Of a stretch of 64,000 bases of DNA, positions 17,699 through 51,606 are shown piece after piece; positions within the stretch are counted from its first letter, which is position 1; each line of letters starts with the position of its first letter. Source of the DNA: a bacterium (GTDB lineage Bacteria > Patescibacteriota > Minisyncoccia > Phycocordibacterales > UBA2100). The notes below the pieces were generated by a model. The model did not search any database, was not told where the DNA came from, and was given only the letters and a program-made list of their open reading frames with translations. The stretch is from NCBI GenBank assembly GCA_016789445.1, contig JAEUQT010000001.1:67603-131602 (forward strand), in the 5' to 3' direction. The translations under genes were made by a program, and so were the position numbers.

Positions 17699-20380
17699 TT
17701 ACTGCACCAGCGAGCAGCCGTTCGGGTTCGGCTCCGCTTCGCAGAGACACTTGATAAATGTATCCATCGATTGTTCTGGGTTACAGGTGCGCACATCAAT
17801 CGGATTCGGATTCGAGGAGCTGCCGCCAGATGCGCCCGCTTCCGCACCCGCTCCCCCTTGTACCGGTGCCGCCGTGGAAACCCTGCCGCTTTGTGCGAAG
17901 AGCCGCTTCGGTTCGTTCTCGTCGCCATTCACTCGAACCACCGTCTCATTCACGAACTTATCCTTCCCGGATTCGATGTCACAGATGACCCCGAAGCGTG
18001 TCGAGGAATTGAGTGCAGGTGTCGTGAGCTCGCCATCTTTCCCGCCCCGCTTGATCACGTTCAGCGTGGAGTCGACGACGACGCACGAGAGCGTGCCGAC
18101 GCTCGTCCATGAAAGTACGCTGGTATCGCCATCATCTATAGATGAAGGGTTGGCTGTGATGGATACAACGGCAGCAGGTTGTGTTGGTTTCGGCTGTGAG
18201 GGAGTTGGAGCTGAATTCGATTCGTCATCGTTGAAGAAATTAAGAACGGTACCGAGGAGCGCGCTCAGTATTCCCAGACCTCCTTGCAGGAATGAGTTCG
18301 GGCGCGATGCGGACCGCTGCGTCTGCGTCGGCTTTGGATCCGGTTGCGGCGCTGGCTGCGGAGCAGGTGCTGGGGTTGGAGCCGGCTTGGTATCTGGCGT
18401 CGGCGTGGGTTCAGGTTCAGGAGTCGGCGTCGGTTCCGGCTGAGCAGGAGTCTCCGTAACAGGAATTTCGACCCCCTCCGGAATACTCGCACCGACTCCC
18501 AGCACATACCCGAGACGATCGATCGCCGTGCGCGCAGCTTCTGCCACACGCTCGCCGATCTTGCTCAAACCTTCAAGCAGACGCGAAGGGGTCGGTGCCG
18601 GCTGCGGGGCCGCAGCCGCTATTTCAGATTCGAGATCGATTTCAAAGGTCGTACCTTCAAGTGCTTTCTCGATGGCCGGATCGATCGCACGAAGTTCATC
18701 GAATTTCTTATTGATGATAGCGCTTCGCTCTTCGTCAGTGGTTGCGGCATCAAATTCTTGAACAAGTTCGTTGTATTCTCGCTCGAACTGCGCACGCTGC
18801 TGCGGAGTAAGCGTGTTCTCCAGCGCCTCGGCTTCGGGCGGCGTAGCATCCGTCATCACCGATCCGCCTTGAGCGACTTGTACCGTCGAAGGGATCGCGC
18901 GTACGTCAGCGGCGATCTTCTCGAGACCCTCACGCATCGAGGCAGCCTTCAATTCATTGAGCGCCTGTCGGTAGGCCACGCCTTCCTTCGAGCCGATGCC
19001 GACCCAATCAAGCATCTCGCCGAACCACGAACGATCATCAAGTGCTTCGCGCGTTTCTTCTACCGCAGCAAATGCCTCTGCTGCTGTCGTAGGAATGATG
19101 GTGGCGACTACCGACGGAGGGAGCGGCGTTACCTCGGGAATCGGAACCGTGATGCCGCTCGGATTCTCTGCATCCTTAACCACGGCTGGCGGCAAGGTGC
19201 CGCGCGGTGTATCGCCGATGAGAGGCTCTCCGGAACCGACGGTCGGCAAACCGATGCGATCCGCAGGCTGCAACGGGACGATCGGGAATCCGGTAAGGAT
19301 GTTGCGTTCCAAGGGAAGATCAAGCGGCGATTGTGTCGGCTTGTTGATGTCGATGCCGCGCGATTCGTTGAGTCGCTTCAGTTTCTCGTCGAGCGCCTTG
19401 AGACGATCCTGCGCCGCAGCATCGGCGACCTGTACCGGCGGCTTGGTAGTGACCGGCGTCGGTTGCGGTTGCGGTTGCGGCTGTGGTGTCGGTGCAGGTG
19501 CAGGAGCTGGCGTCGGTGAAGAATTTCCTGAGGAGAGACCGCCTCCCCCGCCGAATCCGCCGAAAAGGCTGCCGATAGTGGAGATGAAATTCGAGAACAG
19601 ATTGAACCCCGCAGACGCACCAGTGCCACCGAATGAGGGTGACGCATCACCGAAGGTATTCCCGAACGGATTCCCTCCGCTGAAAACACCGTCTAGATAT
19701 TCCCTGTTGCCGGAGATGATTCCTCCGATACTCGGCTTGGTTCCCGGTTTCAGCGTGAAGGGAGAGCCCGAATCGGTAAACGTGGTTCCTGGTTTCGGTG
19801 GTGTTACCGGCTTTGGCGATTCCGAAATAAGTTCACCCTCCCATCCCTCTCCTGTCGGCGACGGGCGGACACTTCCACTAGTTCCACCTCCACCTGAACC
19901 GCCGCTCGGAATTGAAGGCGCGGACGGACTCGGGCTCGGCGTTGAAGGCTGCGGAGCACTCGGCGTCGGCGAAGGGGTTGGTGTAGAGGGAGTGGGGGTC
20001 GGGGTTGGTGCTGGTTTAAGTGGATCATCTTTTCCACTTGAGCCACCAGGGATTTCGTACGGCTTATCTTCGAGAGGCTTTCCATCGCACTTGAGCGATG
20101 CCACGCATTTTCCTGACTTACATATTGAAGTGATGACAGGATTGGCGATGTCTTTGCACTCCAAACCGACCTGATCTCCTGATATCGGCTCACGCATACA
20201 CACTTCCCCCTCTTTCAGAGGATCGAAACCATTCTCAACCCCTTGGCCGGCAGCGCAGCGGAAATTACCGACATCTTGGCGTGTACTACCTCGAAGGGGC
20301 GTATCTTGCGCAAAAAGCGTAAGCGGCATACTCGCTGCGAACACAAAAAGTGCCGCAGAGATCTGAAGATGTATCCTCAT
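17699..20380 (-). CDS. large secreted protein (893 aa) with Pro/Thr- and Gly-rich linkers and C-terminal Cys-rich module paralogous to the giant protein
   Basis: Signal peptide MRIHLQISAALFVFAASMPLTLFA. PTPTPEPEPTPTP linkers. C-terminal SIDDGDTSVLSWTSVG...DVRTCNPEQSMDTFIKCLCEAEPNPNGCS. Minus-strand TATAAT 7 nt upstream of the ATG (plus 20388..20393). Confidence 0.85.
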   Translation of the reverse strand: MRIHLQISAALFVFAASMPLTLFAQDTPLRGSTRQDVGNFRCAAGQGVENGFDPLKEGEVCMREPISGDQVGLECKDIANPVITSICKSGKCVASLKCDGKPLEDKPYEIPGGSSGKDDPLKPAPTPTPTPSTPTPSPTPSAPQPSTPSPSPSAPSIPSGGSGGGGTSGSVRPSPTGEGWEGELISESPKPVTPPKPGTTFTDSGSPFTLKPGTKPSIGGIISGNREYLDGVFSGGNPFGNTFGDASPSFGGTGASAGFNLFSNFISTIGSLFGGFGGGGGLSSGNSSPTPAPAPAPTPQPQPQPQPTPVTTKPPVQVADAAAQDRLKALDEKLKRLNESRGIDINKPTQSPLDLPLERNILTGFPIVPLQPADRIGLPTVGSGEPLIGDTPRGTLPPAVVKDAENPSGITVPIPEVTPLPPSVVATIIPTTAAEAFAAVEETREALDDRSWFGEMLDWVGIGSKEGVAYRQALNELKAASMREGLEKIAADVRAIPSTVQVAQGGSVMTDATPPEAEALENTLTPQQRAQFEREYNELVQEFDAATTDEERSAIINKKFDELRAIDPAIEKALEGTTFEIDLESEIAAAAPQPAPTPSRLLEGLSKIGERVAEAARTAIDRLGYVLGVGASIPEGVEIPVTETPAQPEPTPTPEPEPTPTPDTKPAPTPAPAPQPAPQPDPKPTQTQRSASRPNSFLQGGLGILSALLGTVLNFFNDDESNSAPTPSQPKPTQPAAVVSITANPSSIDDGDTSVLSWTSVGTLSCVVVDSTLNVIKRGGKDGELTTPALNSSTRFGVICDIESGKDKFVNETVVRVNGDENEPKRLFAQSGRVSTAAPVQGGAGAEAGASGGSSSNPNPIDVRTCNPEQSMDTFIKCLCEAEPNPNGCSLVQ

Positions 20381-39347: not shown

Positions 39348-39926
39348 TTATTTGAATACCACCGTCCGAAGGATATCCTCGAAGTCCCGTCGAATGCCGT
39401 CTTCTGGCGTGAGATAGGTACTGGTGAATGCGTATACATATGATGGACGGGCGATCGCGGTCGTGTCGCCTCGATACAAGCCGTCCCAGGTATAGGTCAG
39501 CGACTGCTGCCCTGCGATCGTCGTCGATGAAAGCTTCCCATCCACGGACTGTTTGAAATTCGAAGCGCTGGAATTCTTGATCCACTCTTCCGTGGTCAGA
39601 TCATCCAGATCATTCTGGATCATTTCTATGGAAATAGCAGGCGGCCCCTCGCCTCCTTGCGGTGCGGGGAGATCGGTAATGCGCATAAGGGTGACCACAT
39701 GATGACGACGCTGGGAACTTCCCGGCAGATCACGTTCCGTAAGCTGATATGAGGACGGATAGCGGAATTCGATGCCGTATTCCGGCGAACTATACGTTTT
39801 CAGGCTCGCGCCCGGTGTGGATGTGGAGGTATCCGGCGTTGGCACTTGGACCGCCTGGTCAGAGAGGAGCCAATACCCGCCGGCCGCAAGAACGACAACC
39901 ACTACGATGCCGATAAGCGCTTTCAT
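39348..39926 (-). CDS. hypothetical exported/membrane-anchored protein
   Basis: MKALIGIVVVVVLAAGGYWLL N-terminal anchor. Ends 2 nt before the downstream gene. Confidence 0.6.
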   Translation of the reverse strand: MKALIGIVVVVVLAAGGYWLLSDQAVQVPTPDTSTSTPGASLKTYSSPEYGIEFRYPSSYQLTERDLPGSSQRRHHVVTLMRITDLPAPQGGEGPPAISIEMIQNDLDDLTTEEWIKNSSASNFKQSVDGKLSSTTIAGQQSLTYTWDGLYRGDTTAIARPSYVYAFTSTYLTPEDGIRRDFEDILRTVVFK

Positions 39927-39984
39927 AACCGCACTATACCAACGCCGCGTATTTTTTCCATGAACCAACAAGATTCTCTTGTTT

Positions 39985-40095
39985 TTGAGAACCCTCGGTT
40001 CTCAACGGACGCCAGCGCTTCGCTCGGCGCCCTGCTCTCCGACACGGGAAAACTACAGTTTTCCCGACCCCTTTCGCCTCGCGCTGCTGCGCGAG
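39985..40095 (+). repeat. structured intergenic repeat, copy C
   Basis: TTGAGAACCCTCGGTTCTCAA, CCCTGCTCTCCGACAC, GGGAAAACTACAGTTTTCCC, CTCGCGC-TGCTG-CGCGAG. Confidence 0.7.
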
Positions 40096-40100
40096 CCGCT

Positions 40101-40694
40101 TCAAGTACCCGAAAGCTTGGTAAATACGACCAGGCGCTGATCGTACGTCTTGGCGGATTTCACCCACGAGCCGCCGCAGGTTATGAGATTCAGCCGCGCA
40201 GAACCCGAAGGATTGAAAATGATCTCCGTCGGCACCGCGTCATACGGGTACGATCGCTTACCGGTGACCACGAATGTGCGCCGGGTCCCGTCACGCCGCT
40301 CGACGATTATCTCATCGCCGGTTTCAAGTTCATCGAGGCGTTTGAAAACACCAGAGAGCCCGAGTCCGTTGTCGACATGTCCGGCAATGACCGAAGATCC
40401 TGCGCCGCCGGGCACGACGCCGTACTTGTACCAACCGACATCGGTGAAATTGCTCGGCACTCCCATGTTGCCTGCAGCATTTACGCCGACATCCTGCACA
40501 TTCGCATCGATACCGAGCGAAGGGACGATGAGGCGTACCGGATGGTGCTGCGGATTCGAGGCCACCACCTCATCAGGTGGCACCGTGATCTCCGTATCCG
40601 GGTTGTAGAAGAACGCACGCACGATGGTCGTGGTGAATATCGCGACCGCACAGAGCGTGAGCGTGAATATGAAAAAACGCGAAAGTCTGGCCAT
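40101..40694 (-). CDS. sortase family transpeptidase
   Basis: N-terminal TM, catalytic His (VIAGHVD), TLXTC motif (LNLITCGG) and conserved Arg. Confidence 0.85.
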   Translation of the reverse strand: MARLSRFFIFTLTLCAVAIFTTTIVRAFFYNPDTEITVPPDEVVASNPQHHPVRLIVPSLGIDANVQDVGVNAAGNMGVPSNFTDVGWYKYGVVPGGAGSSVIAGHVDNGLGLSGVFKRLDELETGDEIIVERRDGTRRTFVVTGKRSYPYDAVPTEIIFNPSGSARLNLITCGGSWVKSAKTYDQRLVVFTKLSGT

Positions 40695-40756
40695 ATGAAT
40701 ACTAAGACGTGCGCAGCCAAGGCATCTTTCGATGCCCGGGCTGCGCAAAGGCACTG

Positions 40757-40972
40757 CTATTCAGCTAGCGCATTCCGCTGCATGTACAGATACAGCGCAC
40801 CGCCGACTGCTATCATCGCCGAGATGCCGAGGATGACCGCGTTAAGCGCGATATCTCCCGCACCGGTATTCGGGACGCCTGGTGTCGTCGTCGACGTGGT
40901 GGTCTGGGCGCTCGCGATGCCTGCCACGAAGAGGGAGGCTGCCGCTGCGCCGTTAACGAATTTCTTCAACAT
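40757..40972 (-). CDS. mini sortase-substrate precursor (71 aa): signal peptide plus VPNTG sorting signal, predicted mature part about 14 aa (Thr-rich)
   Basis: MLKKFVNGAAAASLFVAGIASA signal. QTTTSTTTPG-VPNTG-AGDIALNAVILGISAMIAVGGALYLYM-QRNALAE gives motif, hydrophobic segment and basic tail. Sits immediately upstream of the sortase gene. Confidence 0.6.
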   Translation of the reverse strand: MLKKFVNGAAAASLFVAGIASAQTTTSTTTPGVPNTGAGDIALNAVILGISAMIAVGGALYLYMQRNALAE

Positions 40973-41053
40973 ATTTGCAAGATGAGGTTAATTCCTAATC
41001 ATCTCGACCGCTTCTGGTTATATACGCAGGCGGTGAACCAAATATGAACGCGC

Positions 41054-41704
41054 TTACCGGCCGCGGCGATACACCATCATGACGAAGATCGCGAGTGCTG
41101 CGAGGATCAGGAGGCCGAAGATCGGCCACAGGAGAAGCGGCGTGAGATATGCCTCTGCTGCGGACTTTCCGAAGAAATCGGATTTGATAGCCGGCACGGT
41201 GCCGTAGCGGCGGAACGTCTCCAGAAGCGAGAACGAGCTGTCTCCCGCTACCACGAGTACGTACTGCGCATCATCGGCGGCACTGGAGACCTGCACGCGA
41301 TACTCGCTGGGCGGAAGATTCGCTTCAAGCGTCGGGCCTGCAAGATAGCTATCACGTCCGGCAGTGTCGAAGAATCGCTGCCATTCGGTGAGCGTTCCGT
41401 CTCCCGGGATGAAAACGCCTTGCGGGTTCTTCACATCAACGAGCGTCGCCGAAACCTGCGTATTCGCGTCCGGTACATCGGGGACGAGGAGCACGAATTT
41501 GACCGGTGTCTCTTCGTCCACCGTAAAGGTGAAATCGTGCGGTTCGCCGGAGAGCTTGCCGTAATAGGCGCGGTATTTAGTCGGATTAATCGCAGTAGAA
41601 CCCTCGTCTACGATCCTGAGCTGCTGCGCAGAGACGGCGATAGGAAGAACGAGGAATAAAAGCACCGCGAGGATGCCGACGCTGATACGGGATTGGTGGG
41701 TCAT
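41054..41704 (-). CDS. hypothetical exported protein with C-terminal membrane anchor
   Basis: Start at MTHQSRISVGILAVLLFLVLPIAVSA signal inside the longer ORF. C-terminal TM plus YRRGR tail. Confidence 0.62.
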   Translation of the reverse strand: MTHQSRISVGILAVLLFLVLPIAVSAQQLRIVDEGSTAINPTKYRAYYGKLSGEPHDFTFTVDEETPVKFVLLVPDVPDANTQVSATLVDVKNPQGVFIPGDGTLTEWQRFFDTAGRDSYLAGPTLEANLPPSEYRVQVSSAADDAQYVLVVAGDSSFSLLETFRRYGTVPAIKSDFFGKSAAEAYLTPLLLWPIFGLLILAALAIFVMMVYRRGR

Positions 41705-43199: not shown

Positions 43200-44192
43200 A
43201 TGGCCTCTATCCTTGTCACCGGCGGTGCCGGATTCATCGGTTCCAATCTCTGCCGCACCCTTCTTGCAGAAGGACATACAGTGCACGCGGTTGATAACTG
43301 CATCACCGGATCGCGAACCAATGTCGTACCGCTTGAGAGCGATACGAATTTCTTTTTTTATCTTCAGGATATTTCCGATCCTCAGTTCCTGGAAACATTT
43401 TTGCGTACAAAGATCGATCTTATCTACAGCCTCGCCTGCCCTACCGGTGTTCCCAACCTCATCACGCTCGCGGAAGAGATGCTCCGCACCTGTTCGTACG
43501 GCACGTTCAATGTGCTGGAAATCGCGAAACACCATCGTGCGAAACTCCTCCTTTCCTCGACGGCCGAAGTGTACGGCCAGCCGCTTACCAGCCCGCAGGA
43601 CGAGACCTATAACGGCAACGTAAACCCCCTTGGTATGCGCAGTGCCTACGAGGAAGGCAAACGCTTTGCTGAATCAACGCTCGCGATGTACGTCCGTAAA
43701 TACGACGTCGACGCACGCGTCGTGCGCATCTTCAATACGTTCGGCCCGGGCATGTCGCTCAACGATTTCCGCGTTATCCCGCATTTCATCCAGTGCGTAC
43801 TCAATGAACAGCCGCTACGTCTCTACGGCGACGGTCTTCAGACCCGCACGCATCTCTATGTCGATGATCTCGTACGCGGGCTCACCACGGTCATGGAACA
43901 CGGCATTCCTGGCGAGGCATACAACGTCGGCGGCGAGCATCAGATGACGATCCGTGAACTCGCTGAGCTCGTAATCACCCTCACTGACCACACAGCCGGC
44001 ATCGTCTACGAACCGCATTTTATCGAGGATCATACGCATCGTCGTCCTGCCGTTGAGAAAGCAAAATCCCTTGGCTGGTCGCAGCAGGTCACCGTCGAAG
44101 AAGGTCTACGTCGCATGGTCGCGCACCACCTGCCGCTGCGTGTCGTCACAGAATCCGAAATCCAACCATCCGCTGACCAGGTCATCACATAG
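43200..44192 (+). CDS. NAD-dependent epimerase/dehydratase, UDP-glucuronate decarboxylase (UDP-xylose synthase)-like
   Basis: ILVTGGAGFIGSNL Rossmann. YEEGKRFAESTLAMY catalytic YxxxK. High similarity pattern to UXS/ArnA C-terminal domain. Confidence 0.88.
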   Translation: MASILVTGGAGFIGSNLCRTLLAEGHTVHAVDNCITGSRTNVVPLESDTNFFFYLQDISDPQFLETFLRTKIDLIYSLACPTGVPNLITLAEEMLRTCSYGTFNVLEIAKHHRAKLLLSSTAEVYGQPLTSPQDETYNGNVNPLGMRSAYEEGKRFAESTLAMYVRKYDVDARVVRIFNTFGPGMSLNDFRVIPHFIQCVLNEQPLRLYGDGLQTRTHLYVDDLVRGLTTVMEHGIPGEAYNVGGEHQMTIRELAELVITLTDHTAGIVYEPHFIEDHTHRRPAVEKAKSLGWSQQVTVEEGLRRMVAHHLPLRVVTESEIQPSADQVIT

Positions 44193-44194
44193 CC

Positions 44195-45868
44195 ATGGTC
44201 GGGTTCTTCCAGTTTTTCGGCATCAGTTTCCTCTTCTGGATCATTGTAGGGTGCCTCAGATTCATTTTTGAGACACTGCGTAAGCTGCGCGATATGCCCC
44301 AGAAGTCTTCGCGCATCAATCTGGTCGCAGCATCCATAGCAGGAGTCGGCCTCAGCGCCTCACTGTTCTTCCTCGTCTTCTTCAGTTTCGGCTTTGAAGA
44401 AAGCTTACTCCTCACCGCGAACGTGTCCGCCTTGCATGTCTCCAGCTTCATCCTCTGGCTCGCCTGTATCGGCGTCGGCTCATATATCGCAGCACGAATC
44501 TACGTGCACGAACCGTACATTCTCTCGTTCGCGGTCTCCATGGGAACCCTTGCGGCAGTCACGACCTCCCTTCTCTACTCACCTTCTCTTTCCGCGAATC
44601 TTATCCCGCAGAATGCCGGTTTCGCCTTCCTCATATTCGCTTCAACGATGGGCATCGGTTTTCTCGGCGGACATATTGCGCGCAGTATGAATGCGCTTGA
44701 ACGCGAACGCGATGCCATTCGCCGCGAAGCAACTAAGCACGCACGCATCGCACCAGAAGACGTTGCCATCCTCATCGCAGCGCACAACGAAGAACTCACC
44801 ATCGGCACCACGGTGGCATCAGTGCTTGCGTTTACGGATGCCAAAAACGTCTTCGTGGCGAGCGACGGCTCATCCGACAAAACCATTGACGTCGTGCGCT
44901 CACTGGGCGCGCATGCGGACGATATTCGGCCGAATCGGGGAAAAGCAGGCGCGATCGTCGAAGCGCTTAAGAGAAATGACCTGCTTGATCGCTACAAGGC
45001 CGTGTTTCTCATGGATGCGGACCTGAAAGTCGATCCAAATTTTTTCACTCATGCCCTCCCCTTTTTCGACAATCCGAACGTCGCAGCGGTCGCAGGTCAT
45101 CTCGATTCGCTGTGGATCCCACACCTCATGCCGCGATGGAATATGTTTTTCACCGCGTACCGAATCCGACTGTGGCGGATCCTACAATTCTGCGTACGCT
45201 ACGGACAGACATGGCAATATACCAACGTCTCCCCGATTATCCCTGGCGGAGGAAGCGTATATCGTAGCGAGGCTCTTAAAAAGATAACCATCGAAGTACC
45301 TGGCCTCATCATTGAGGACTTCAACATGACGTTTGAGGTCCATCACAAGAACCTCGGCCTCATCGCCTTTGATCCGAAAGCCTTTGCTACGACTCAAGAA
45401 CCATTTTCGCTGCGAGACTATACCAAACAGATCAATCGCTGGTATTTGGGATACTTCCAGACAATCCGGCACCATGGCATCTGGCCGAGCTGGTTCATAT
45501 TCTCAACGCTTTTTTTCACGGTCGAGCTTGCTCTCTCTTCTCTACTGTTTGCGTTGCTTCCTTTTTTCGTACTAGAACTTCTCCTCAGCTCACGGGATTC
45601 CCTATTCATCAACATCCCTGTTTTCGGCTTTGAGATAAGCCTTGCGGGCATCGCCATGGTCGTGTTTGCACTGGATTACATCGTTACGATTCTGGTCGCG
45701 TTCATTGAGCGCAAACCCGTGCTCATGTTCTACGGGCCCGCTTTCTTCTTCTTGCGATACATCGAGACATGGATATTCCTCTATGCGCTCGGTGTTGGCC
45801 TTTTCACCACCCCACAGACCGAAGGAAAGTGGAAAAGCCCGAAACGAGTGGCGTACTCGAAAAACTAA
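44195..45868 (+). CDS. membrane glycosyltransferase family 2 (processive synthase-like, N- and C-terminal TM bundles)
   Basis: 4 N-terminal TM, GT2 core (ILIAAHNEELTIG, FVASDGSSDKT, FLMDADLKVDP), QINRWYLGY (QxxRW-like) motif, C-terminal TMs. Confidence 0.85.
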   Translation: MVGFFQFFGISFLFWIIVGCLRFIFETLRKLRDMPQKSSRINLVAASIAGVGLSASLFFLVFFSFGFEESLLLTANVSALHVSSFILWLACIGVGSYIAARIYVHEPYILSFAVSMGTLAAVTTSLLYSPSLSANLIPQNAGFAFLIFASTMGIGFLGGHIARSMNALERERDAIRREATKHARIAPEDVAILIAAHNEELTIGTTVASVLAFTDAKNVFVASDGSSDKTIDVVRSLGAHADDIRPNRGKAGAIVEALKRNDLLDRYKAVFLMDADLKVDPNFFTHALPFFDNPNVAAVAGHLDSLWIPHLMPRWNMFFTAYRIRLWRILQFCVRYGQTWQYTNVSPIIPGGGSVYRSEALKKITIEVPGLIIEDFNMTFEVHHKNLGLIAFDPKAFATTQEPFSLRDYTKQINRWYLGYFQTIRHHGIWPSWFIFSTLFFTVELALSSLLFALLPFFVLELLLSSRDSLFINIPVFGFEISLAGIAMVVFALDYIVTILVAFIERKPVLMFYGPAFFFLRYIETWIFLYALGVGLFTTPQTEGKWKSPKRVAYSKN

Positions 45869-45873
45869 TTAAA

Positions 45874-45899
45874 AAACCGCGGCAGATGCCGCGGTTTTT
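45874..45899. terminator. bidirectional intrinsic terminator
   Basis: AAAAAACCGCGGCA-GA-TGCCGCGGTTTTT between convergent GT2 and deacetylase genes. Confidence 0.6.
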
Positions 45900-45916
45900 A
45901 ATACCTATGATCAGGA

Positions 45917-46912
45917 TTATTCGATCGAGCCGAGCCTTTCGAGACCTTCGCTCGCGGTGACCACCTCGATGTTCGACTGCTTTACATAGTCGACAATCTG
46001 CGTGAGCAGCTCGCTGGAAATATTCACGGCGGTATCACCCGAACCTTCGTCTACCGGTTCGTCTACCTTATGGATAAGGAAGATGACCCATTTCTTCTGC
46101 GCAATTGCCTGATCGATCACCTCCTTGGCCTTCTCGAACGTCATATTGCTCGCATTCCAGCTGTAGAGAACGTAGCGATCGGTGTTTTTATCGTTGAATC
46201 CCTCCTCGACGCCGCGGGCACCGCTGAAGGACCCTGCTACCACAGTGCGGACATCATTGTTCACTGCACCGTAGGGATACGCGAAAACCTTAGTCTCATG
46301 CCCGAGATTCGCGAGGTCTTGCTTACCACCGATCACTTCATCCTGGACCCGTTGACTGTCTAAGGTTGTCAAATCCGGATGCGATCTGGTATGTGCCCCA
46401 ATCTCATGCCCACGTGCCGCTATATCGGCCAGATTGTTCGGTTTTATGAATGCCTCATAGCCTCCGTCTCCGAGATACTCCGTCGTGACGTAATAGGTCG
46501 TCTTGATGCCTGCAGCATCGAAGATGGGAAGCCCTTTCTCATAGCCTGATATCCATCCGTCATCAAAATCGAATGAAATAAGCGCACCACTTGCCGGCTG
46601 CGGCGCAGGTTGCGGTTCTGGAGTCGGAGTCGGGTCTGGTTCCGGCTGCGGCGCAGGTTCTGGAGTCGGCGTTGGCGTCGGTTCAGGTTGCGGCTGCGGT
46701 TCCGGCGTCGGCGTCGGCGTCGGCGTCGGCTCAGGAGTTGGCGTTGGAGCCGGACCACGAAGCGAATTGCGCAATTCGACACGCATCTGCACTGCAGCTT
46801 CTCGAGCCGCACGAGCGGCTTCGCGATCGGCGTGCGCCGTCTGATAAGGGAGACCAGTACTCACCAAAACAAGTGACGCGAGTACAATCAAAGCATTGAA
46901 TCGCTTCATCAT
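45917..46912 (-). CDS. secreted polysaccharide deacetylase (CE4/NodB domain) with Pro-rich linker
   Basis: Signal peptide, PTPEPTPTPTPEPQPQPEPTP linker, NodB motifs FDFDDGW and HTRSHPDL. Confidence 0.85.
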   Translation of the reverse strand: MMKRFNALIVLASLVLVSTGLPYQTAHADREAARAAREAAVQMRVELRNSLRGPAPTPTPEPTPTPTPTPEPQPQPEPTPTPTPEPAPQPEPDPTPTPEPQPAPQPASGALISFDFDDGWISGYEKGLPIFDAAGIKTTYYVTTEYLGDGGYEAFIKPNNLADIAARGHEIGAHTRSHPDLTTLDSQRVQDEVIGGKQDLANLGHETKVFAYPYGAVNNDVRTVVAGSFSGARGVEEGFNDKNTDRYVLYSWNASNMTFEKAKEVIDQAIAQKKWVIFLIHKVDEPVDEGSGDTAVNISSELLTQIVDYVKQSNIEVVTASEGLERLGSIE

Positions 46913-47064
46913 ATTTAATTTGTAGAAACGTTAACAGCAAATAACCCCCCGAGACGTTCCCTCCTTACAAAGCTAAGGGTACGCTAAGGGTACGCTTTTT
47001 TTATGAGGAATGTGTGACGAAGAATGTGGATAAAAATGTATGACAGGGGTCGGGGCTACCGTCG

Positions 47065-47901
47065 GTGGTTGATGGAGAAGTAAATTGCTATCATCCCCCC
47101 ATGCTTCTTTTGATACTATCAGTCGTACTATCAGACTGGTTTCGTGGCATAATCCTCTCATTCGTGACACTTGTCTCCATGTTTGCACATAATCCGCAGA
47201 CAACGACTCAGCCTATCACCGACCTTCGCGACGCCGTGATCGAGTTGTCGGCCATTCATCAAGAACAAGAATCGGAAGCGCCATCGATTTCAAGCGCCTA
47301 TCCGCTTCATCGCGGCATCGTGGCGACCGTCTTTTGGGTAGGCGAACCTGAAGGCGGAGGATCTTCAGAAGATAATGCGCTGTCCGCATGGGATGACGAC
47401 TGGCAAAGAAACTATGGCGGCTTCGACGACCCTCAGAAGCGCAATGGCTATCATCCGATCGGATTCACCCCGAAAGAAAATCCTTTCTATCTTGATCTGC
47501 CGTACAACGACTTCGACGATGAAGGCAGACGGAAGACGAATGCCTATCGCGTGATACCGTGGGCGAACGAAAAACAGTGGGGACCACGAGAGTCAATGAT
47601 GAAGAATCGCTGGGTCAAGCTGATCCGTAATGGCATCACCTGCTATGGCCAGATCCAAGATGCCGGGCCGTATGAATACGACGATCATGCCTATGTGTTC
47701 GGCGATGGAAGCACTAAACCCAAATCGACCCTTGCTAACAATGCCGGACTAGACGTCTCACCGGCCCTCCGCGACTGCCTCAAATTCAATCATTGGAATA
47801 ACGCAGACAACAAGGTTGACTGGCAATTTGTGGACGCTGCCGATGTGCCGGCAGGACCCTGGAACGAGATCGTAACAACATCACAGATACACTGGCGCTA
47901 A
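47065..47901 (+). CDS. hypothetical membrane-anchored protein, possibly RlpA/expansin-like DPBB fold
   Basis: N-terminal TM. ATVFWVGEP ... CYGQIQDAGPYEYDD ... GLDVSPALRDCL loosely matches the DPBB pattern (ASWYG ... INDRGP ... IDLS.AA). Fold assignment tentative. Confidence 0.65.
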   Translation: MVDGEVNCYHPPMLLLILSVVLSDWFRGIILSFVTLVSMFAHNPQTTTQPITDLRDAVIELSAIHQEQESEAPSISSAYPLHRGIVATVFWVGEPEGGGSSEDNALSAWDDDWQRNYGGFDDPQKRNGYHPIGFTPKENPFYLDLPYNDFDDEGRRKTNAYRVIPWANEKQWGPRESMMKNRWVKLIRNGITCYGQIQDAGPYEYDDHAYVFGDGSTKPKSTLANNAGLDVSPALRDCLKFNHWNNADNKVDWQFVDAADVPAGPWNEIVTTSQIHWR

Positions 47902-48082
47902 GCACGACAGTTGCACAGGCAACCTTGCATTTGTCGTGAAAATGATGCCTTCTCTCATGCTTCGTAATAAGAAACTGGCCCATCCGGCACAAGATATGAT
48001 ACGCTTGTATCGTATCGCGGTTATAAGTTCTTGACAGGGGAACAAGAACGCACGAAGTCGTCTGTCATTAATAACTTATTCC

Positions 48083-50098
48083 TTGTTCCTCGCTATGATG
48101 TTTCTAAAAGGGCGCGTCTTCCCTTATCAGTCTCCTATTGCATCCGCACTGCTCTTCGCACTCATCGTTGCGGCCACGCCATTGCAAGCGGTCTTTGCAG
48201 CGCAAACAGGCCTTATCGCACCGAGCACCAACGTGAACAGCGGCTGGCAGAATCCGCAGAATGCATATGCCTCGGACAACAATCGCGCGATCGCGGATAA
48301 TAACGCTGATATCGTCCAGTACGGTGGTTTTTCGTTTCCGACGACTACCGGTGTCATAAACGGCATCGAGCTGGTCGTTGAAGGCTATACCACCGGTCGG
48401 ACATCACTCTCCTCCGTAGGGCGTCCTCAAGAGCAAATTTCCCTCTCCTGGAACGGTGGTACCAACTACACTTCCGGAACCGCTGGCGTGAAGACGACGA
48501 GTCTACCGCTCAATCGTGAGACGACGCAGACATTCGGCGGATCCAGGGATGCATGGGGCCGCACGTGGACCCCTGAAGAGCTTGCGAACCTACGAGTGAA
48601 GCTCGCGACCAGAGGAGCAACTGGCGGGAAACTATATGTGGATCAAATTCGAGTACGTATTCATTACACCCCCCGCATCACTACGCAAACGGTTATAACA
48701 TCTCACACTCCAGACCCTTCGACGACCAATCAAGCCTATACCGTAAACGTAACAGTCACTCCTGCCTCGGGTTCCACACGCCCATCCGGAAGCGTAACGG
48801 TCACTGACGGAACGAGCTCGTGCACCGACACGACTGCAAGCAACGGAGCAAGCAGCACCTCAGCCTTCTCATGCGCACTTACCTCCACGACCGCGGGCAC
48901 CAAGACCCTCACCGCAACCTTTACCAGCACCAATGCCTTTACGGGCAGTTCGGGAACAGCGTCGCACACCGTCACCGCAGCACCCCCACCCCCACCTTCG
49001 TCGGAGACCTTCAGCAAAGGCATGGTTTCCATCACCTTCGATGACGGCACGAAATCCGTGTACAACGCAATCGCCGCTCGCAACCTGCTTCAAGGTTTGC
49101 CGAGCACGCAGTACGTGTATTCAATCCCGATGTACGGTGCTGCGCTATGCAATGGCGCCTGCTACACCGAATACATGTCAACCGCAGACGTGCAGAACCT
49201 TGCTGCAGCGGGACATGAAATCGCTTCGCATACGCGCGGACACCGTAATCTATCGACGCTCTCAGGAACCGATTCGCTCTTTGAGACGAACGGTTCGCGA
49301 CTTGATTTCATCGGTGAGTTCCCATCCCTGGCTGTTACAAGCCTTGCGTATCCGTACGGAGGATTCAACAGCGCGGTCAAACAACAACTTCAAGCGGCGG
49401 GCTACAGCGGCGGCCGCACCGTAGATATCATAGGCGCTGATGGACGACCCATACTTAACAAGCCGTCAACGGATCGATTCGCACTCTTTTCAGGCCAAGT
49501 AACCGGCACGTCACCCGTAACGCCGAACGACCCTTTACCGACCGGCTGGAATCCCGAATTCGGTACGATCCAATCCTGGATTGATGATGCGGTAAACAAC
49601 AAGCAATGGCTGATTCTGACCCTTCACGAAGTCAAAGACGACTGCGGCGCGGACGCGTATTGCGTCACCCCCGCGAAACTCACACAGATCGTGAATTATC
49701 TCAAGTCAAAAGGATCATCGATCGATGTGGTTACGGTTGGACAGGGATTGAGTCGCATGAATAGTGCCCCCACTTCAGACGGTGCGGCACCGGTAGTGAC
49801 CGTACCTCAAACGGTCAACAATACGATCACCACCAAGGCAACATCGTCGTCCGGAGCGGCAGTCACCTTCACCCCGGTCGTAACCGACTCGAACTCCGGC
49901 TTGAACGCACTCTGCGTTCTCCCCGCCATCCAAGAGGAGTTCGTGTTCCCTTCCGGTGAAGCCTCGGGAATACAGCTCCCGAAAGTCGTCACCTCCGGAT
50001 ACACGTTCCCGACAGGCTCGACAAGCGTGCGATGTTCCGCGAGCGACGTCGGCGGTAAAGTCGGTACCTACACCTTTACGGTTACCGTAACCCCGTAG
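48083..50098 (+). CDS. secreted multidomain polysaccharide deacetylase (N-terminal domain of unknown function, Ig-like Thr/Ser-rich domain, CE4 NodB domain, C-terminal HYR-like domain)
   Basis: Signal peptide. NodB motifs ITFDDGTKS and HTRGHRNL. C-terminal CVLPA...TFTVTVTP beta-sandwich. Confidence 0.85.
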   Translation: MFLAMMFLKGRVFPYQSPIASALLFALIVAATPLQAVFAAQTGLIAPSTNVNSGWQNPQNAYASDNNRAIADNNADIVQYGGFSFPTTTGVINGIELVVEGYTTGRTSLSSVGRPQEQISLSWNGGTNYTSGTAGVKTTSLPLNRETTQTFGGSRDAWGRTWTPEELANLRVKLATRGATGGKLYVDQIRVRIHYTPRITTQTVITSHTPDPSTTNQAYTVNVTVTPASGSTRPSGSVTVTDGTSSCTDTTASNGASSTSAFSCALTSTTAGTKTLTATFTSTNAFTGSSGTASHTVTAAPPPPPSSETFSKGMVSITFDDGTKSVYNAIAARNLLQGLPSTQYVYSIPMYGAALCNGACYTEYMSTADVQNLAAAGHEIASHTRGHRNLSTLSGTDSLFETNGSRLDFIGEFPSLAVTSLAYPYGGFNSAVKQQLQAAGYSGGRTVDIIGADGRPILNKPSTDRFALFSGQVTGTSPVTPNDPLPTGWNPEFGTIQSWIDDAVNNKQWLILTLHEVKDDCGADAYCVTPAKLTQIVNYLKSKGSSIDVVTVGQGLSRMNSAPTSDGAAPVVTVPQTVNNTITTKATSSSGAAVTFTPVVTDSNSGLNALCVLPAIQEEFVFPSGEASGIQLPKVVTSGYTFPTGSTSVRCSASDVGGKVGTYTFTVTVTP

Positions 50099-50116
50099 CC
50101 GGCACCCGACCAGCGC

Positions 50117-50150
50117 GAAAACCCCGGCGAATAGCCGGGGTTTTCAAATG
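50117..50150. terminator. bidirectional intrinsic terminator
   Basis: AAAACCCCGGC-GAATA-GCCGGGGTTTTC. Confidence 0.6.
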
Positions 50151-50211
50151 ATCAAGGATCAAGAATGTATCCGCAGCGTACGATACGACACTACTACAAC
50201 AAACATTTTGC

Positions 50212-51606
50212 TTGCGTGCGAGAGGATATTTCATGCTATACTCCTCGACAAGGAAACTGGCGTACGCCGAGATGGAAACGCAGCAACGGGAAACCCTTGA
50301 ACCAATCGCAACGGAACTCACGTCCGCTGCGCTTTCCTATTCAGTGGCCGTTGTCGGCCTCGGCTACGTCGGATTGCCACTCGCCCTCCTCGCCGCCCGC
50401 AAGGGTCATCGCGTGGTGGGTATCGATGTAAGCGAAAAGAAGGTCGCCTCTATTCGTGGCGGGACTTCGCCGTTTTATGACGAAGCGATCACCCGCCACC
50501 TTGCCGAAACCAAGCTCGAAGCCGACACCGATTTCGTGCGCATTCGCGATGCCGAAATCGTCATTGTCTGCGTTCCGACGCCGGTGCGTGACGATCATTC
50601 GCCCGATCTCGATCCCCTCATCAAGGCGTGCGAATCGATCGCGCCGCACCTCTCACAAGGTTCGCTTATCGTCATTGAATCTACGGTGAACCCCGGCATC
50701 TGCGACACGATCGTTATCCCGACTCTCGAGCAGCATTCCAATCTCGTTGCAGGACGTGATTTCATGGTCTCCCACTGTCCTGAGCGCGTAAACCCGGGCG
50801 ATGATCGCTGGGGCGTCGACAACATCAACCGCGTCGCCGGCTCTCTCACGCCACAGGGTCTTGAGAAAACGCTCCTCTTTTATCGCTCGATCGTGGACGG
50901 CGAGGTGCGGCCGATGGGCTCCCTCAAGGAGGCCGAAGCAGTAAAAATCGTCGAAAACACGTTCCGTGATATCAACATCGCATTTGTGAACGAACTCGCA
51001 ATGTCGTTCGACCGAATGGGCATCGACATCGTCAATGTCATCGACGCGGCATCGACCAAGCCATTTGCTTTCATGCCGCACTACCCCGGCTGTGGCGTCG
51101 GCGGCCACTGCATTCCGGTTGATCCGTACTACCTCATCGAAGAAGGACGCCGTCATGGATTCGATCACGAATTCCTCGCCCTCGCTCGCCGTATCAACAA
51201 CCGCATGCCGATCCATACCGTCGACATACTCGAGAAAATGCTCTCTGAAGCTGGTATCGCGCTCTCCGATGCCCGCATCGCGGTCCTCGGTCTCGCCTAC
51301 AAGGCTGACATCGACGACATGCGCGAGAGCCCAGCACACGACATCCTGAATGAGCTCACCGCGCGCGGCGCTACGCCGGTCGCCTTTGATCCGTACGTGC
51401 AGGACGACCGCTACGCATCTTCGCTTGATGAGGCGCTTCTGGGCGCTCAGGCAGCCATCATCGCGACACCGCACAAAGCATTCCGCAATATGCACCCGCG
51501 CGACTTCCTCGACCGCGGCGTAGAAATCGTCCTCGACGGCAAGAACTGCCTGCCGAAGAAACTGTTCCTCGATTCAGGAATTACGTTCAAGGGAATCGGT
51601 CGCTAG
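50212..51606 (+). CDS. nucleotide-sugar (UDP-glucose/UDP-ManNAc) 6-dehydrogenase family
   Basis: VAVVGLGYVGLPLA Rossmann. Catalytic GGHCIPVDPYY. Start may be at METQQR (50272). Confidence 0.9.
   Translation: MRARGYFMLYSSTRKLAYAEMETQQRETLEPIATELTSAALSYSVAVVGLGYVGLPLALLAARKGHRVVGIDVSEKKVASIRGGTSPFYDEAITRHLAETKLEADTDFVRIRDAEIVIVCVPTPVRDDHSPDLDPLIKACESIAPHLSQGSLIVIESTVNPGICDTIVIPTLEQHSNLVAGRDFMVSHCPERVNPGDDRWGVDNINRVAGSLTPQGLEKTLLFYRSIVDGEVRPMGSLKEAEAVKIVENTFRDINIAFVNELAMSFDRMGIDIVNVIDAASTKPFAFMPHYPGCGVGGHCIPVDPYYLIEEGRRHGFDHEFLALARRINNRMPIHTVDILEKMLSEAGIALSDARIAVLGLAYKADIDDMRESPAHDILNELTARGATPVAFDPYVQDDRYASSLDEALLGAQAAIIATPHKAFRNMHPRDFLDRGVEIVLDGKNCLPKKLFLDSGITFKGIGR

What the first reader, a model, noticed from the sequence alone, without database searches (positions are those of the whole stretch)
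40101..41704. Sortase gene immediately preceded by a 71-aa precursor whose sortase-processed product would be only about 14 residues
The ORF at 40757-40972 encodes MLKKFVNGAAAASLFVAGIASA|QTTTSTTTPG-VPNTG-AGDIALNAVILGISAMIAVGGALYLYM-QRNALAE. It has a Sec signal peptide, a Thr-rich 14-mer, an LPXTG-like VPNTG motif, a hydrophobic helix and a basic tail. That is a complete sortase sorting signal attached to almost no cargo. The sortase gene follows 63 nt downstream on the same strand, and an exported, C-terminally anchored protein gene sits just upstream. A cell-wall-linked or protein-linked Thr-rich oligopeptide could be a glycosylation carrier or a pilus-tip or adaptor peptide. It could also be the remnant of a larger substrate after internal deletion.
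Basis: partly seen in the sequence, partly recalled or inferred. Interest (0 to 1): 0.6.

Follow-up and report, generated by a model that had tools for sequence, protein, structure and literature searches.

The report
Cargo-less sortase substrate with dedicated sortase
An ultra-small (Patescibacteria) bacterium carries a conserved two-gene cassette in which a sortase sits next to a 71-residue precursor whose only "cargo" is a 14-residue threonine-rich peptide, so the cell most likely decorates its wall with a bare peptide stalk rather than a protein.

Summary
There is a 71-aa ORF (40757-40972), a 62-nt spacer, and a 197-aa sortase (40101-40694).

It is not a remnant. Word-based search found 47 homologues of 61-90 aa. 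A profile search found 320 clusters (50% identity), nearly all 59-138 aa. dN/dS is 0.05-0.1, matching the sortase.

The consensus is signal peptide, AxA|Q-T, a Thr/Ser/Gly spacer, TPG-[VTA]-P-[NDS]-T-G-x-G-(G)-D, a transmembrane helix and a basic residue. Predicted cargo is 10-76 residues (median 16), 38% Thr, with no Cys and almost never Lys.

Precursor and sortase stay adjacent in Paceibacteria genomes with unrelated flanks; no third gene is shared. A strong hairpin, conserved in structure but not sequence, sits between the genes in 27 of 30 loci with a spacer of at least 40 nt. That suggests precursor is made in excess over enzyme.

The sortase has the fold and the His-Cys-Arg triad. It scores best as class F but below NCBIfam's cutoff.

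Best reading: a dedicated sortase attaches a short Thr-rich peptide (possibly glycosylated and pyroGlu-capped) to peptidoglycan. Anchoring chemistry, acceptor and glycosylation are inferred. I found no published description.

The parts
40757..40972 (-). Mini-precursor gene (71 aa plus stop): signal peptide, Thr-rich 14-mer, VPNTG, transmembrane helix and a short tail
   Evidence: ORF listing and sequence. TIGR01167 at 17.7 bits against a cutoff of 15.9. 47 homologues of 61-90 aa. 320 clusters in a profile search. dN/dS 0.05-0.24.
40907..40972 (-). Predicted Sec signal peptide, residues 1-22 (MLKKFVNGAAAASLFVAGIASA), with cleavage at ASA|Q
   Evidence: Sequence inspection. G18, A22 and Q23 are invariant in alignment A1. 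In 187 parsed members the residue after Q is T in 153; that parse required Q after the AxA-like site, so Q conservation itself rests on A1 (47/47). No signal-peptide predictor was available.
40865..40906 (-). Predicted mature product Q23-T36, QTTTSTTTPGVPNT (14 residues)
   Evidence: This is the most conserved part of the family. T30, P31, G32, P34 and T36 are invariant; T24, T25, T29, V33 and N35 are at least 90% conserved. There is no Lys or Cys.
40862..40876 (-). Sortase recognition pentapeptide VPNTG (residues 33-37)
   Evidence: Motif counts across 187 family members: VPNTG 88, TPNTG 19, VPSTG 15, APNTG 14. The motif is preceded by TPG in 148 of 187 and followed by GAGG or GAGD.
40760..40861 (-). 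Post-cleavage segment: AGD, a hydrophobic transmembrane helix, then YLYMQRNALAE
   Evidence: Sequence. Matches positions 3-29 of the LPXTG_anchor model. D40 is invariant; N44, L48, Y61 and L62 are at least 90% conserved.
40710..40747 (-). Intergenic RNA hairpin with a 9+7 bp stem and a GAAA loop, between the precursor stop and the sortase start
   Evidence: The 91-nt context folds at -43.6 kcal/mol, z = -4.6 against dinucleotide shuffles, with 0 of 200 shuffles as stable. Equivalent hairpins of unrelated sequence occur in 27 of 30 related loci with spacers of at least 40 nt. In four close relatives, 7 of 14 pairs show compensatory changes.
40101..40694 (-). Sortase gene (197 aa): N-terminal membrane helix, linker and catalytic domain. 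Catalytic His106 is at 40377-40379, Cys173 at 40176-40178 and Arg187 at 40134-40136.
   Evidence: Pfam PF04203 at 3.6e-21. Best NCBIfam match is class_F_sortase at 141.1 bits, cutoff 166. H106, C173 and R187 are invariant in A2. AF2 model has pLDDT 83 with a helix at residues 2-29. Foldseek gives probability 1.0 to solved sortases.
40994..41049 (-). Conserved upstream region of the precursor gene: direct repeat GTTCA-N6-GTTCA (41045-41049 and 41034-41038), TATAAC (41017-41022) and an invariant block GGTCGAGATGAT (within 40994-41009)
   Evidence: Alignment of six relatives. A promoter or regulator-site role is inferred only. The sigma-70 consensus scan did not call it.
41054..41704 (-). Neighbouring gene: 216-aa exported beta-sandwich protein with a C-terminal membrane anchor. 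It is syntenic only in the closest clade.
   Evidence: No Pfam or NCBIfam hit. 46 homologues, many on the same contigs as precursor and sortase homologues. Absent in L004 and L005. AF2 pLDDT 82; Foldseek's best match is the ColG collagen-binding/PPC-type domain at E = 3e-6.

Best explanation
This is a dedicated two-gene sortase system of Paceibacteria (Patescibacteria/CPR). Its substrate has been reduced to the wall-spanning stalk alone.

Proposed sequence of events:
1. The precursor gene is transcribed from its own conserved upstream region.
2. A stable hairpin before the sortase gene lets precursor mRNA exceed sortase mRNA (inferred).
3. The 71-aa precursor is exported by Sec and cut after ASA, leaving an N-terminal Gln.
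4. It is held in the membrane by its C-terminal helix.
5. The membrane-anchored sortase (His106/Cys173/Arg187) cleaves between Thr36 and Gly37 of VPNTG.
6. The sortase transfers the 14-residue peptide QTTTSTTTPGVPNT to an amine of the peptidoglycan precursor.

The result would be a dense layer of short, hydroxyl-rich peptides on the wall. The N-terminal Gln probably cyclises to pyroglutamate, and the peptides may be O-glycosylated.

Shown here: gene structure, the motifs and their conservation, pairing with the sortase, the sortase fold and catalytic triad, the hairpin and its structural conservation, and purifying selection.

Inferred from what is known of sortases: the cleavage site, the peptidoglycan acceptor, excess expression of the precursor, pyroglutamate formation, glycosylation, and the biological role.
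For: - Real, conserved gene: 47 homologues of 61-90 aa, with the cargo and motif being the most conserved part.
- Family size: 320 clusters at 50% identity, nearly all 59-138 aa.
- Selection: dN/dS 0.05-0.1 against close relatives, as for the sortase.
- Pairing: precursor and sortase are adjacent in contigs with unrelated flanks. Most of 80 Patescibacteria genome loci also have an adjacent substrate.
- No third partner: no other gene recurs across loci.
- Co-variation: sortase clades track substrate type. [VTA]P[NDS]TG goes with Thr-rich cargo; LPTTG or FPVTG goes with Cys-repeat cargo.
- Cargo behaves as a spacer: length runs 10-76 (median 16) with constant composition (T 38%, S 9%, G 11%). 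Mini and longer low-complexity forms are interspersed on the sortase tree.
- Enzyme looks functional: sortase fold, triad and membrane anchor.
- Hairpin.
- Exclusivity in this window: only one sortase and one sorting signal in 64 kb. The two giant surface proteins there lack sorting signals.
Against: - There is no experimental or expression data.
- The acceptor is unknown.
- No protein O-glycosylation or LCP genes were found among the window ORFs scanned, so glycosylation has no direct support.
- The window's C-terminal tail has only one basic residue.
- The sortase scores below the class F cutoff, so its specificity cannot be transferred from the one characterised class F enzyme.
- A whole-genome census of substrates was not possible, so calling the sortase 'dedicated' rests on adjacency.
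- The hairpin might be only a terminator, with an independent sortase promoter.
Confidence: 0.55

Rival explanations
1. The sortase joins the peptides to something other than peptidoglycan. One option is head-to-tail ligation through the free alpha-amine of the conserved N-terminal Gln, giving a linear poly(QTTT...PNT) mucin-like fibre or a cyclic peptide. Another is attachment to a different envelope polymer or protein.
For: The N-terminal Gln is invariant in A1 (47/47) and Thr follows it in 153 of 187 parsed members, although signal peptidase needs no particular residue after its cut. The cargo has no other nucleophile, with Lys in 2 of 187. Some members carry two tandem TPGVPNTG motifs separated by Thr-rich spacers, as if repeats are tolerated (P0216, P0225, P0289, P0303).
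Against: From established knowledge, known sortases use Gly or Ala alpha-amines, or Lys or DAP side chains, and N-terminal Gln cyclises readily, which would block it as a nucleophile. Nothing here tests the acceptor. Gln after the signal-peptide cut also occurs in the neighbouring protein (AVSA|QQ).
Confidence: 0.1
2. The useful product is not the wall-linked peptide. Either the sortase releases a small soluble peptide signal, or the membrane-retained C-terminal fragment left after cleavage acts as a signal or as a regulator of the sortase or the envelope.
For: The transmembrane segment is also conserved among close relatives (GAGD..N..IL..SA.IA.GGALYLY). The gene order of small precursor, hairpin and enzyme resembles peptide-maturation loci.
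Against: Across the family the strongest conservation is in the cargo and motif, not the helix. A species-specific signal would be expected to diverge, yet QTTT...TPGVPNT is nearly constant over hundreds of clusters while its length drifts. No sensor kinase or transporter is a conserved neighbour.
Confidence: 0.1
3. The wall-anchored mini-peptide is an adaptor. It would hold a non-covalently bound surface protein or complex, as the small LPXTG protein CscD is proposed to do. Here the partner could be the neighbouring beta-sandwich membrane protein.
For: The upstream 216-aa protein has a binding-module-like beta-sandwich resembling PPC/collagen-binding domains. It is syntenic with the pair in the closest clade. 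Small LPXTG proteins in Csc clusters are a precedent (PMC5341603, PMC4522977).
Against: The upstream gene is missing from more distant loci that keep the pair (L004, L005). It does not recur across the 80 loci. A 10-14-residue unstructured peptide is a poor docking site unless it is modified. There are no WxL or DUF916 domains.
Confidence: 0.1
4. The small ORF is a decayed remnant of a larger surface protein, or it is not translated at all.
For: It is very short, and there is no obvious Shine-Dalgarno sequence at the usual distance; the nearest AGGA is about 21 nt upstream. One database entry (P0182) is a precursor-sortase fusion with a broken motif, VPNIG, showing that decay does occur.
Against: There are hundreds of clusters of the same small size. 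dN/dS is 0.05-0.1 with saturated synonymous sites. Signal-peptide cut site, motif and Asp40 are invariant. The upstream region and downstream hairpin are conserved.
Confidence: 0.02

Closest known systems
Class F sortases (NCBIfam NF033748; the only characterised member is the housekeeping sortase of Cutibacterium/Propionibacterium acnes, Di Girolamo et al. 2019, cited in PMC13251363)
   Same: Class F is the best-scoring sortase class for this enzyme (141 bits, against 35 bits for class E). Close homologues are named class F sortase by NCBI. It has an N-terminal membrane anchor and the His-Cys-Arg triad.
   Different: The score is below the family cutoff of 166. The motif is [VTA]P[NDS]TG rather than LPXTG. 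The enzyme is paired with a single adjacent mini-substrate instead of serving many surface proteins. Physiological roles of class F enzymes are themselves unknown: deleting all four in Actinoplanes missouriensis gave no phenotypic changes (PMC13251363).
Dedicated sortase plus single adjacent target cassettes (from my own knowledge: SrtB-IsdC in Staphylococcus aureus; class D SrtC with BasI/BasH in Bacillus anthracis; the 'marine'/class GN sortase TIGR03784 with its vWA-domain target)
   Same: The sortase gene lies next to its cognate substrate gene, uses a variant recognition motif, and co-varies with its substrate.
   Different: In those systems the cargo is a folded functional domain. Here it is 10-20 unstructured Thr-rich residues.
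CscD, the 'small LPXTG protein' of Csc/WxL cell-surface-complex clusters in Lactobacillales (Siezen 2006, as cited in PMC5341603; elr operon, PMC4522977)
   Same: It is the only class of small LPXTG proteins my literature searches turned up. It too is encoded beside a protein with a C-terminal membrane anchor.
   Different: There are no WxL or DUF916 partners here. There is no sequence relationship, since no CscD-type family was hit in Pfam or NCBIfam. Csc clusters, as described in those papers (cscA-D), list no sortase gene of their own.
Ser/Thr/Pro-rich wall-spanning or stalk regions that precede C-terminal sorting signals (LPXTG proteins of Gram-positives; Thr-rich O-glycosylated linkers before PGF-CTERM in archaea, from my own knowledge; O-glycosylated Ser/Thr-rich disordered regions of streptococcal membrane-associated proteins, PMC12041528)
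   Same: The composition and the position directly before the sorting motif match. Length is evolutionarily labile.
   Different: Here the stalk is the whole exported product, with no domain attached to it. Glycosylation is not shown.
Sortase-assembled pilins (class C sortases)
   Same: A small, abundant structural substrate encoded next to its sortase. A hairpin after the structural gene is a common way to over-produce a subunit (my own knowledge).
   Different: There is no pilin-motif lysine and no Ig-like domains. The sortase is not class C by HMM, at 18 bits.

Membership tests
Sortase superfamily (Pfam PF04203) | HMM match above the curated gathering score | tested here: met
   75.6 bits against a cutoff of 26.6, E = 3.6e-21, covering 124 of 125 profile positions.
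Sortase superfamily (Pfam PF04203) | Catalytic His-Cys-Arg triad, with Cys in a TLxTC-like motif | tested here: met
   H106 (AGHVDN), C173 (LITCGG) and R187 are invariant in 30 homologues.
Sortase superfamily (Pfam PF04203) | Eight-stranded beta-barrel sortase fold with a membrane anchor | tested here: met
   AF2 model has pLDDT 83, a helix at residues 2-29 and a beta-rich domain at 52-194. Foldseek gives probability 1.0 to solved class A, C and E sortases, E down to 5e-10.
Sortase superfamily (Pfam PF04203) | Transpeptidase activity on the cognate motif | not testable with these tools
   Needs an enzyme assay.
Class F sortase (NCBIfam NF033748) | HMM score at or above the curated cutoff (166 bits) | tested here: not met
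   141.1 bits. It is still by far the best class, with class E at 34.8, D at 25.6 and C at 18.3. Some homologues at about 55-63% identity are named class F sortase by NCBI. I therefore call it 'class F-like'.
LPXTG cell-wall sorting signal (NCBIfam TIGR01167) | HMM match above the curated cutoff | tested here: met
   17.7 bits against 15.9, residues 34-63.
LPXTG cell-wall sorting signal (NCBIfam TIGR01167) | Pentapeptide, then a hydrophobic helix, then a positively charged tail at the extreme C-terminus, plus an N-terminal signal peptide | tested here: met
   VPNTG, a helix of about 25 residues, then QRNALAE with one Arg; relatives have RR or RK. The signal peptide with ASA|Q was identified by inspection. 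Leu at position 1 of the motif is replaced by Val, Thr or Ala in most of the family.
Sortase-dependent pilins | A lysine nucleophile (pilin motif) in the exported part | tested here: not met
   No Lys in the window's cargo. Lys is present in only 2 of 187 family cargos.
CscD / Csc-WxL surface-complex clusters | Co-located WxL-domain (CscB/C) and DUF916 (CscA) genes | tested here: not met
   The upstream and downstream neighbours have no such Pfam hits. No recurrent third gene appears across 80 loci.
O-glycosylated Ser/Thr-rich stalk | A protein O-glycosyltransferase (GT-C/PMT type) or LCP enzyme acting on the region | tested here: inconclusive
   None was found among the window ORFs scanned. 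The nearby GT2 (44195-45868) is a 7-TM synthase-type enzyme flanked by an epimerase and deacetylases. The rest of the genome could not be read.

The most novel reading that the evidence does not exclude
Paceibacteria may use a dedicated sortase to build a new envelope component from a cargo-less substrate. One form would be a dense peptide or glycopeptide 'brush' that caps peptidoglycan stem-peptide amines. The other would be a head-to-tail, sortase-polymerised Thr-rich mucin-like fibre that uses the invariant N-terminal Gln as the acceptor. Either would be a mode of sortase use not described before. It would also make these peptides a major surface determinant of ultra-small episymbiotic bacteria.
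Probability: 0.15. Interest if true: 0.85.

Novelty: new variant of a known kind. Interest (0 to 1): 0.6.

Why it matters
- Sortase biology: every textbook sortase substrate is a protein domain tethered to the wall. A conserved, widespread family whose exported part is only 10-20 Thr-rich residues would mean the tether itself can be the product. That points to an unrecognised covalent modification of peptidoglycan in Patescibacteria, whose envelope is essentially uncharacterised.
- Testable biochemistry: it gives a concrete pair to test, namely the sortase domain and a TTPGVPNTGAGGD peptide.
- Detectable product: it gives a predicted mass-spectrometric target, (pyroGlu)TTTSTTTPGVPNT on a stem peptide, with or without hexoses.
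- Tools: it offers a natural minimal sorting tag and a sortase with a non-LPXTG specificity ([VTA]PNTG) that could be useful for protein ligation.
- Annotation: NCBI and JGI name these genes 'hypothetical protein' or generic 'LPXTG anchor' proteins. No Pfam or NCBIfam model captures the family.

Tried and rejected
- Remnant or untranslated ORF: rejected by family size, the length distribution and dN/dS.
- Pilin reading: rejected because the cargo lacks Lys and the class C score is weak.
- Three-gene operon with the upstream exported protein as a universal partner: rejected. That gene is syntenic only in the closest clade.
- Conserved neighbouring glycosylation gene: BLAST clustering of all neighbours in 80 loci found nothing recurrent except the sortase and a Cys-repeat substrate family. 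Pfam scans of window ORFs found no LCP or GT-C enzyme.
- Solved close homologue of the sortase: none. There were only remote class C and D hits at E about 1e-5.
- Rfam: no known RNA family in the spacer. The only hit in the window is a tRNA.
- Consensus promoter/terminator scan: it called neither the hairpin (there is no U-tract) nor a promoter before the small ORF.
- Literature: searches for sortase or LPXTG with CPR, Patescibacteria, Parcubacteria or Saccharibacteria, and for small or short LPXTG proteins, found no description of this family. They returned only general statements that CPR encode sortases (PMC6744442, PMC7143001).
- Whole-genome census of sorting signals: not possible, because only about 10-kb flanks of relatives can be fetched.
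- Caveats on my own scripts: the classification and tree are rough. A few loci were mis-parsed (for example L087 and L032), and the tree is a simple neighbour-joining tree. The z-scores use mononucleotide shuffles.
Full report
**1. What is in the sequence**

All genes of the finding lie on the minus strand.
- The small ORF is 40757-40972(-).
- A 62-nt spacer (40695-40756) follows.
- Then comes a sortase gene, open from a GTG at 40754. Homologues and independent gene calls on identical contigs start it at the ATG at 40694, giving 197 aa with stop at 40101.
- Eighty-one nt upstream of the small ORF, a 216-aa gene ends (41054-41704). It has a signal peptide and a C-terminal membrane helix ending RRGR.

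Family scans support both identifications.
- The sortase matches Pfam PF04203 at E = 3.6e-21.
- The small ORF reaches NCBIfam's LPXTG_anchor model above its cutoff, 17.7 against 15.9 bits.

Within the 64-kb window (56% G+C) this is the only ORF with a sorting-signal-like C-terminus and the only sortase. Two giant secreted proteins in the window have no sorting signal.

**2. The gene is real and conserved as a mini-gene**

- A word-indexed search of 5.8 billion proteins returned 47 homologues, all 61-90 aa.
- The exact sequence is already in NCBI as 'LPXTG cell wall anchor domain-containing protein [bacterium]'.
- In their alignment the invariant positions are G18, A22, Q23, T30, P31, G32, P34, T36, G37 and D40. 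These are the signal-peptidase site, the end of the cargo, the sortase motif and the acidic residue after it.
- A profile of that alignment, run against 1.84 billion cluster representatives, found 320 clusters at E <= 1e-3 and 67 at E <= 1e-10. The 150 listed are almost all 59-138 aa.

I parsed 187 members.
- Predicted cargo, from the Gln after the AxA site to the Thr of the motif, is 10-76 residues with a median of 16. 123 of 187 are under 20 residues.
- The shortest form is QTTTPGVPNT.
- Composition is T 38.5%, P 11%, G 11% and S 9%. Cys never occurs and Lys occurs in 2 of 187.
- The second residue is Thr in 153 of 187.
- The motif is VPNTG (88), TPNTG (19), VPSTG (15), APNTG (14) or a close variant.
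- TPG precedes the motif in 148 of 187, and GAGG or GAGD usually follows it.

Codon-level comparison with five relatives gives dN/dS of 0.053 (L089), 0.089 (L087) and 0.084 (L090). Synonymous sites are near saturation. The sortase falls in the same range, 0.06-0.13.

The 'internal-deletion remnant' and 'untranslated' readings are therefore rejected.

**3. The conserved unit is the precursor-sortase pair**

- Contigs identical or close to the window keep the three-gene arrangement of beta-sandwich protein, precursor and sortase.
- In L004 (precursor 62% identical) and L005 (57%) the pair sits in different surroundings. L005 has a recombinase upstream and TsaD downstream, and the 216-aa gene is absent.
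- A scan of one genome per GTDB species found at least 584 relatives of the sortase. The best 80 are nearly all labelled as Patescibacteria: Paceibacterota, Kaiserbacteria, Nomurabacteria, Adlerbacteria, Parcubacteria, plus MAGs labelled Saccharibacteria.
- In most of these loci an ORF with xPxTG, a helix and a basic tail ends just upstream of the sortase on the same strand.
- All-against-all BLAST of the neighbours found only two recurrent families: the sortase (73 loci) and a Cys-repeat substrate (14 loci).

Substrate type tracks the sortase clade (both scripts are rough).
- Thr-rich cargos with [VTA]P[NDS]TG go with sortases at least about 48% identical to the window's.
- A monophyletic group of more distant sortases pairs with cargos of about 100 aa. 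These carry three GCSSxxGYSxxTGxxCNG repeats and LPTTG, FPVTG or LPRTG motifs.
- A separate clade has no adjacent small substrate. It sometimes follows 600-730-aa LPNTG or LPDTG proteins and looks like a second, general sortase.
- Mini and longer low-complexity Thr/Ser/Gly cargos are interspersed on the tree, so stalk length expands and contracts readily.

**4. The enzyme**

- His106, Cys173 (in LITCGG) and Arg187 are invariant in 30 homologues.
- The AlphaFold2 model (pLDDT 83) has an N-terminal helix at residues 2-29, a poorly ordered linker and a beta-rich domain.
- Foldseek matches solved class C, A and E sortases with probability 1.0.
- Sequence search of the PDB finds only remote sortases at E about 1e-5.
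- Among NCBIfam class models, class F is clearly best at 141 bits but falls below its cutoff of 166. I therefore call the enzyme class F-like.
- Little is known of class F function. One enzyme has been characterised, and a quadruple class F deletion in Actinoplanes gave no phenotypic changes (PMC13251363).

**5. Regulatory anatomy**

- The spacer folds into a 16-bp hairpin capped by GAAA (40710-40747). The 91-nt context has an MFE of -43.6 kcal/mol and z = -4.6, and none of 200 dinucleotide shuffles is as stable.
- It has no U-tract, so the terminator scan did not call it.
- In 27 of 30 distinct related loci with a spacer of at least 40 nt, the spacer also holds a strong hairpin of unrelated sequence (z <= -2 against mononucleotide shuffles). 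Several in AT-rich genomes carry U-tracts.
- Loci with spacers under 25 nt have no hairpin.
- Among four close relatives, 7 of 14 stem pairs show compensatory changes.
- I infer an attenuator or stabiliser that raises precursor mRNA over sortase mRNA, as expected for a stoichiometric structural substrate.
- Upstream of the precursor, six relatives share GTTCA-N6-GTTCA, a TATAA box and an invariant GGTCGAGATGAT block. A promoter or regulator site is plausible but untested.

**6. Mechanism and function**

The steps from export to transfer onto a wall amine follow from the established sortase pathway. None was tested here.
- Sec export.
- Cleavage at ASA|Q.
- Membrane retention by the C-terminal helix.
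- Thioester formation at Thr36.
- Transfer to a cell-wall amine.

The product would be QTTTSTTTPGVPNT. Three features suggest a composition-dependent role as a hydrophilic or glycosylated stalk or brush on peptidoglycan, possibly protected by N-terminal pyroglutamate:
- constant composition with variable length;
- the near-universal N-terminal Gln-Thr;
- the absence of Lys and Cys.

O-glycosylation of extracytoplasmic Ser/Thr-rich regions in Gram-positives has precedent (PMC12041528, abstract). However, I found no GT-C or LCP gene in the window.

The nearby cluster encodes a polysaccharide pathway. It comprises a GT2 synthase, a UXS-like epimerase, a UDP-glucose dehydrogenase and deacetylases. 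It is syntenic in close relatives only, so it is a lead rather than evidence.

Rivals that remain open:
- transfer to a non-peptidoglycan acceptor, or head-to-tail ligation via the Gln amine;
- a released peptide, or signalling by the C-terminal fragment;
- an adaptor role for the neighbouring beta-sandwich protein, whose fold resembles PPC/collagen-binding modules.

**7. Comparison with known systems and novelty**

- The system works like a dedicated sortase-plus-target cassette, but the target has no domain.
- The only 'small LPXTG proteins' my searches found in the literature are CscD of Csc/WxL clusters. Their defining partners are absent here.
- Papers on CPR note only that sortases are common (PMC6744442; PMC7143001).
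- No Pfam or NCBIfam model is specific for the mini-precursor.
- Database names are 'hypothetical protein' or generic LPXTG anchor.

I rate it a new variant of a known kind. The genes exist in databases. The family, its pairing, its minimal cargo and the hairpin architecture appear undescribed, within the limits of the open-access library I could search.

Noticed in passing
window 9195-17168(-) and 17699-20380(-): Two giant secreted proteins (2657 and 893 aa) end in the same Cys-rich tail, DVRTC(D/N)PEQxMDxFIKCLCEAEPNPxGCS. Neither has a sorting signal. The larger one has Amidase_2 and DPBB_1 (lytic transglycosylase-like) domains, so it may attack peptidoglycan. The shared tail could be a secretion or attachment tag.
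   Followed up: partly
L030, L035, L047, L050-L052, L059, L061, L066, L072, L076 (about 2300-2990, + strand): A second substrate type sits next to more distant Paceibacteria sortases. The cargo is about 100 aa with three repeats of GCSSxxGYSxxTGxxCNG (6 Cys) and LPTTG, FPVTG or LPRTG motifs. It has no Pfam match and pairs with a monophyletic sortase clade.
   Followed up: partly
window 40994-41049(-): The conserved region upstream of the mini-precursor holds a direct repeat GTTCA-N6-GTTCA with 11-bp periodicity, as in response-regulator sites. It also holds a TATAAC box and an invariant GGTCGAGATGAT block in the presumed 5' UTR.
   Followed up: partly
window 41054-41704(-): The upstream 216-aa protein has no family assignment. 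Its model folds as a beta-sandwich resembling the ColG collagen-binding/PPC domain, followed by two long C-terminal helices. Its 46 homologues are confined to the clade closest to the window.
   Followed up: yes
protein P0182 (151 aa): This database entry fuses the mini-precursor (with a broken VPNIG motif) in frame to the sortase from its AGHVDN region onward. It is probably a deletion pseudogene or an assembly artefact.
   Followed up: no
proteins P0216, P0225, P0289, P0303: Some longer family members carry two TPGVP(N/E)TG motifs in tandem, separated by a Thr/Gly-rich spacer. This suggests internal duplication of the stalk-plus-motif unit.
   Followed up: no
window 43200-51606, both strands: A polysaccharide gene cluster lies 2-10 kb from the cassette. 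It has a UXS-like epimerase, a 7-TM GT2 synthase, two polysaccharide deacetylases (one with a Pro/Thr-rich linker, one with a Big_3_5 domain) and a UDP-glucose dehydrogenase. Synteny is kept in close relatives (L001, L087-L089) but not in L005.
   Followed up: partly
L069, L075, L078, L079, L082, L083, L085, L086: These loci form a separate clade of Patescibacteria sortases, matching only residues about 50-194 of the query. They have no adjacent mini-substrate. Three follow 600-730-aa LPNTG or LPDTG proteins. One MAG (JAIFWI01) has both types (L063 and L073), so some genomes carry a dedicated and a general sortase.
   Followed up: partly
window 39846-40985(+): A 379-codon ORF on the plus strand runs antisense across the sortase and the mini-precursor. 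It is a shadow ORF of the G+C-rich coding strand, not a gene.
   Followed up: no
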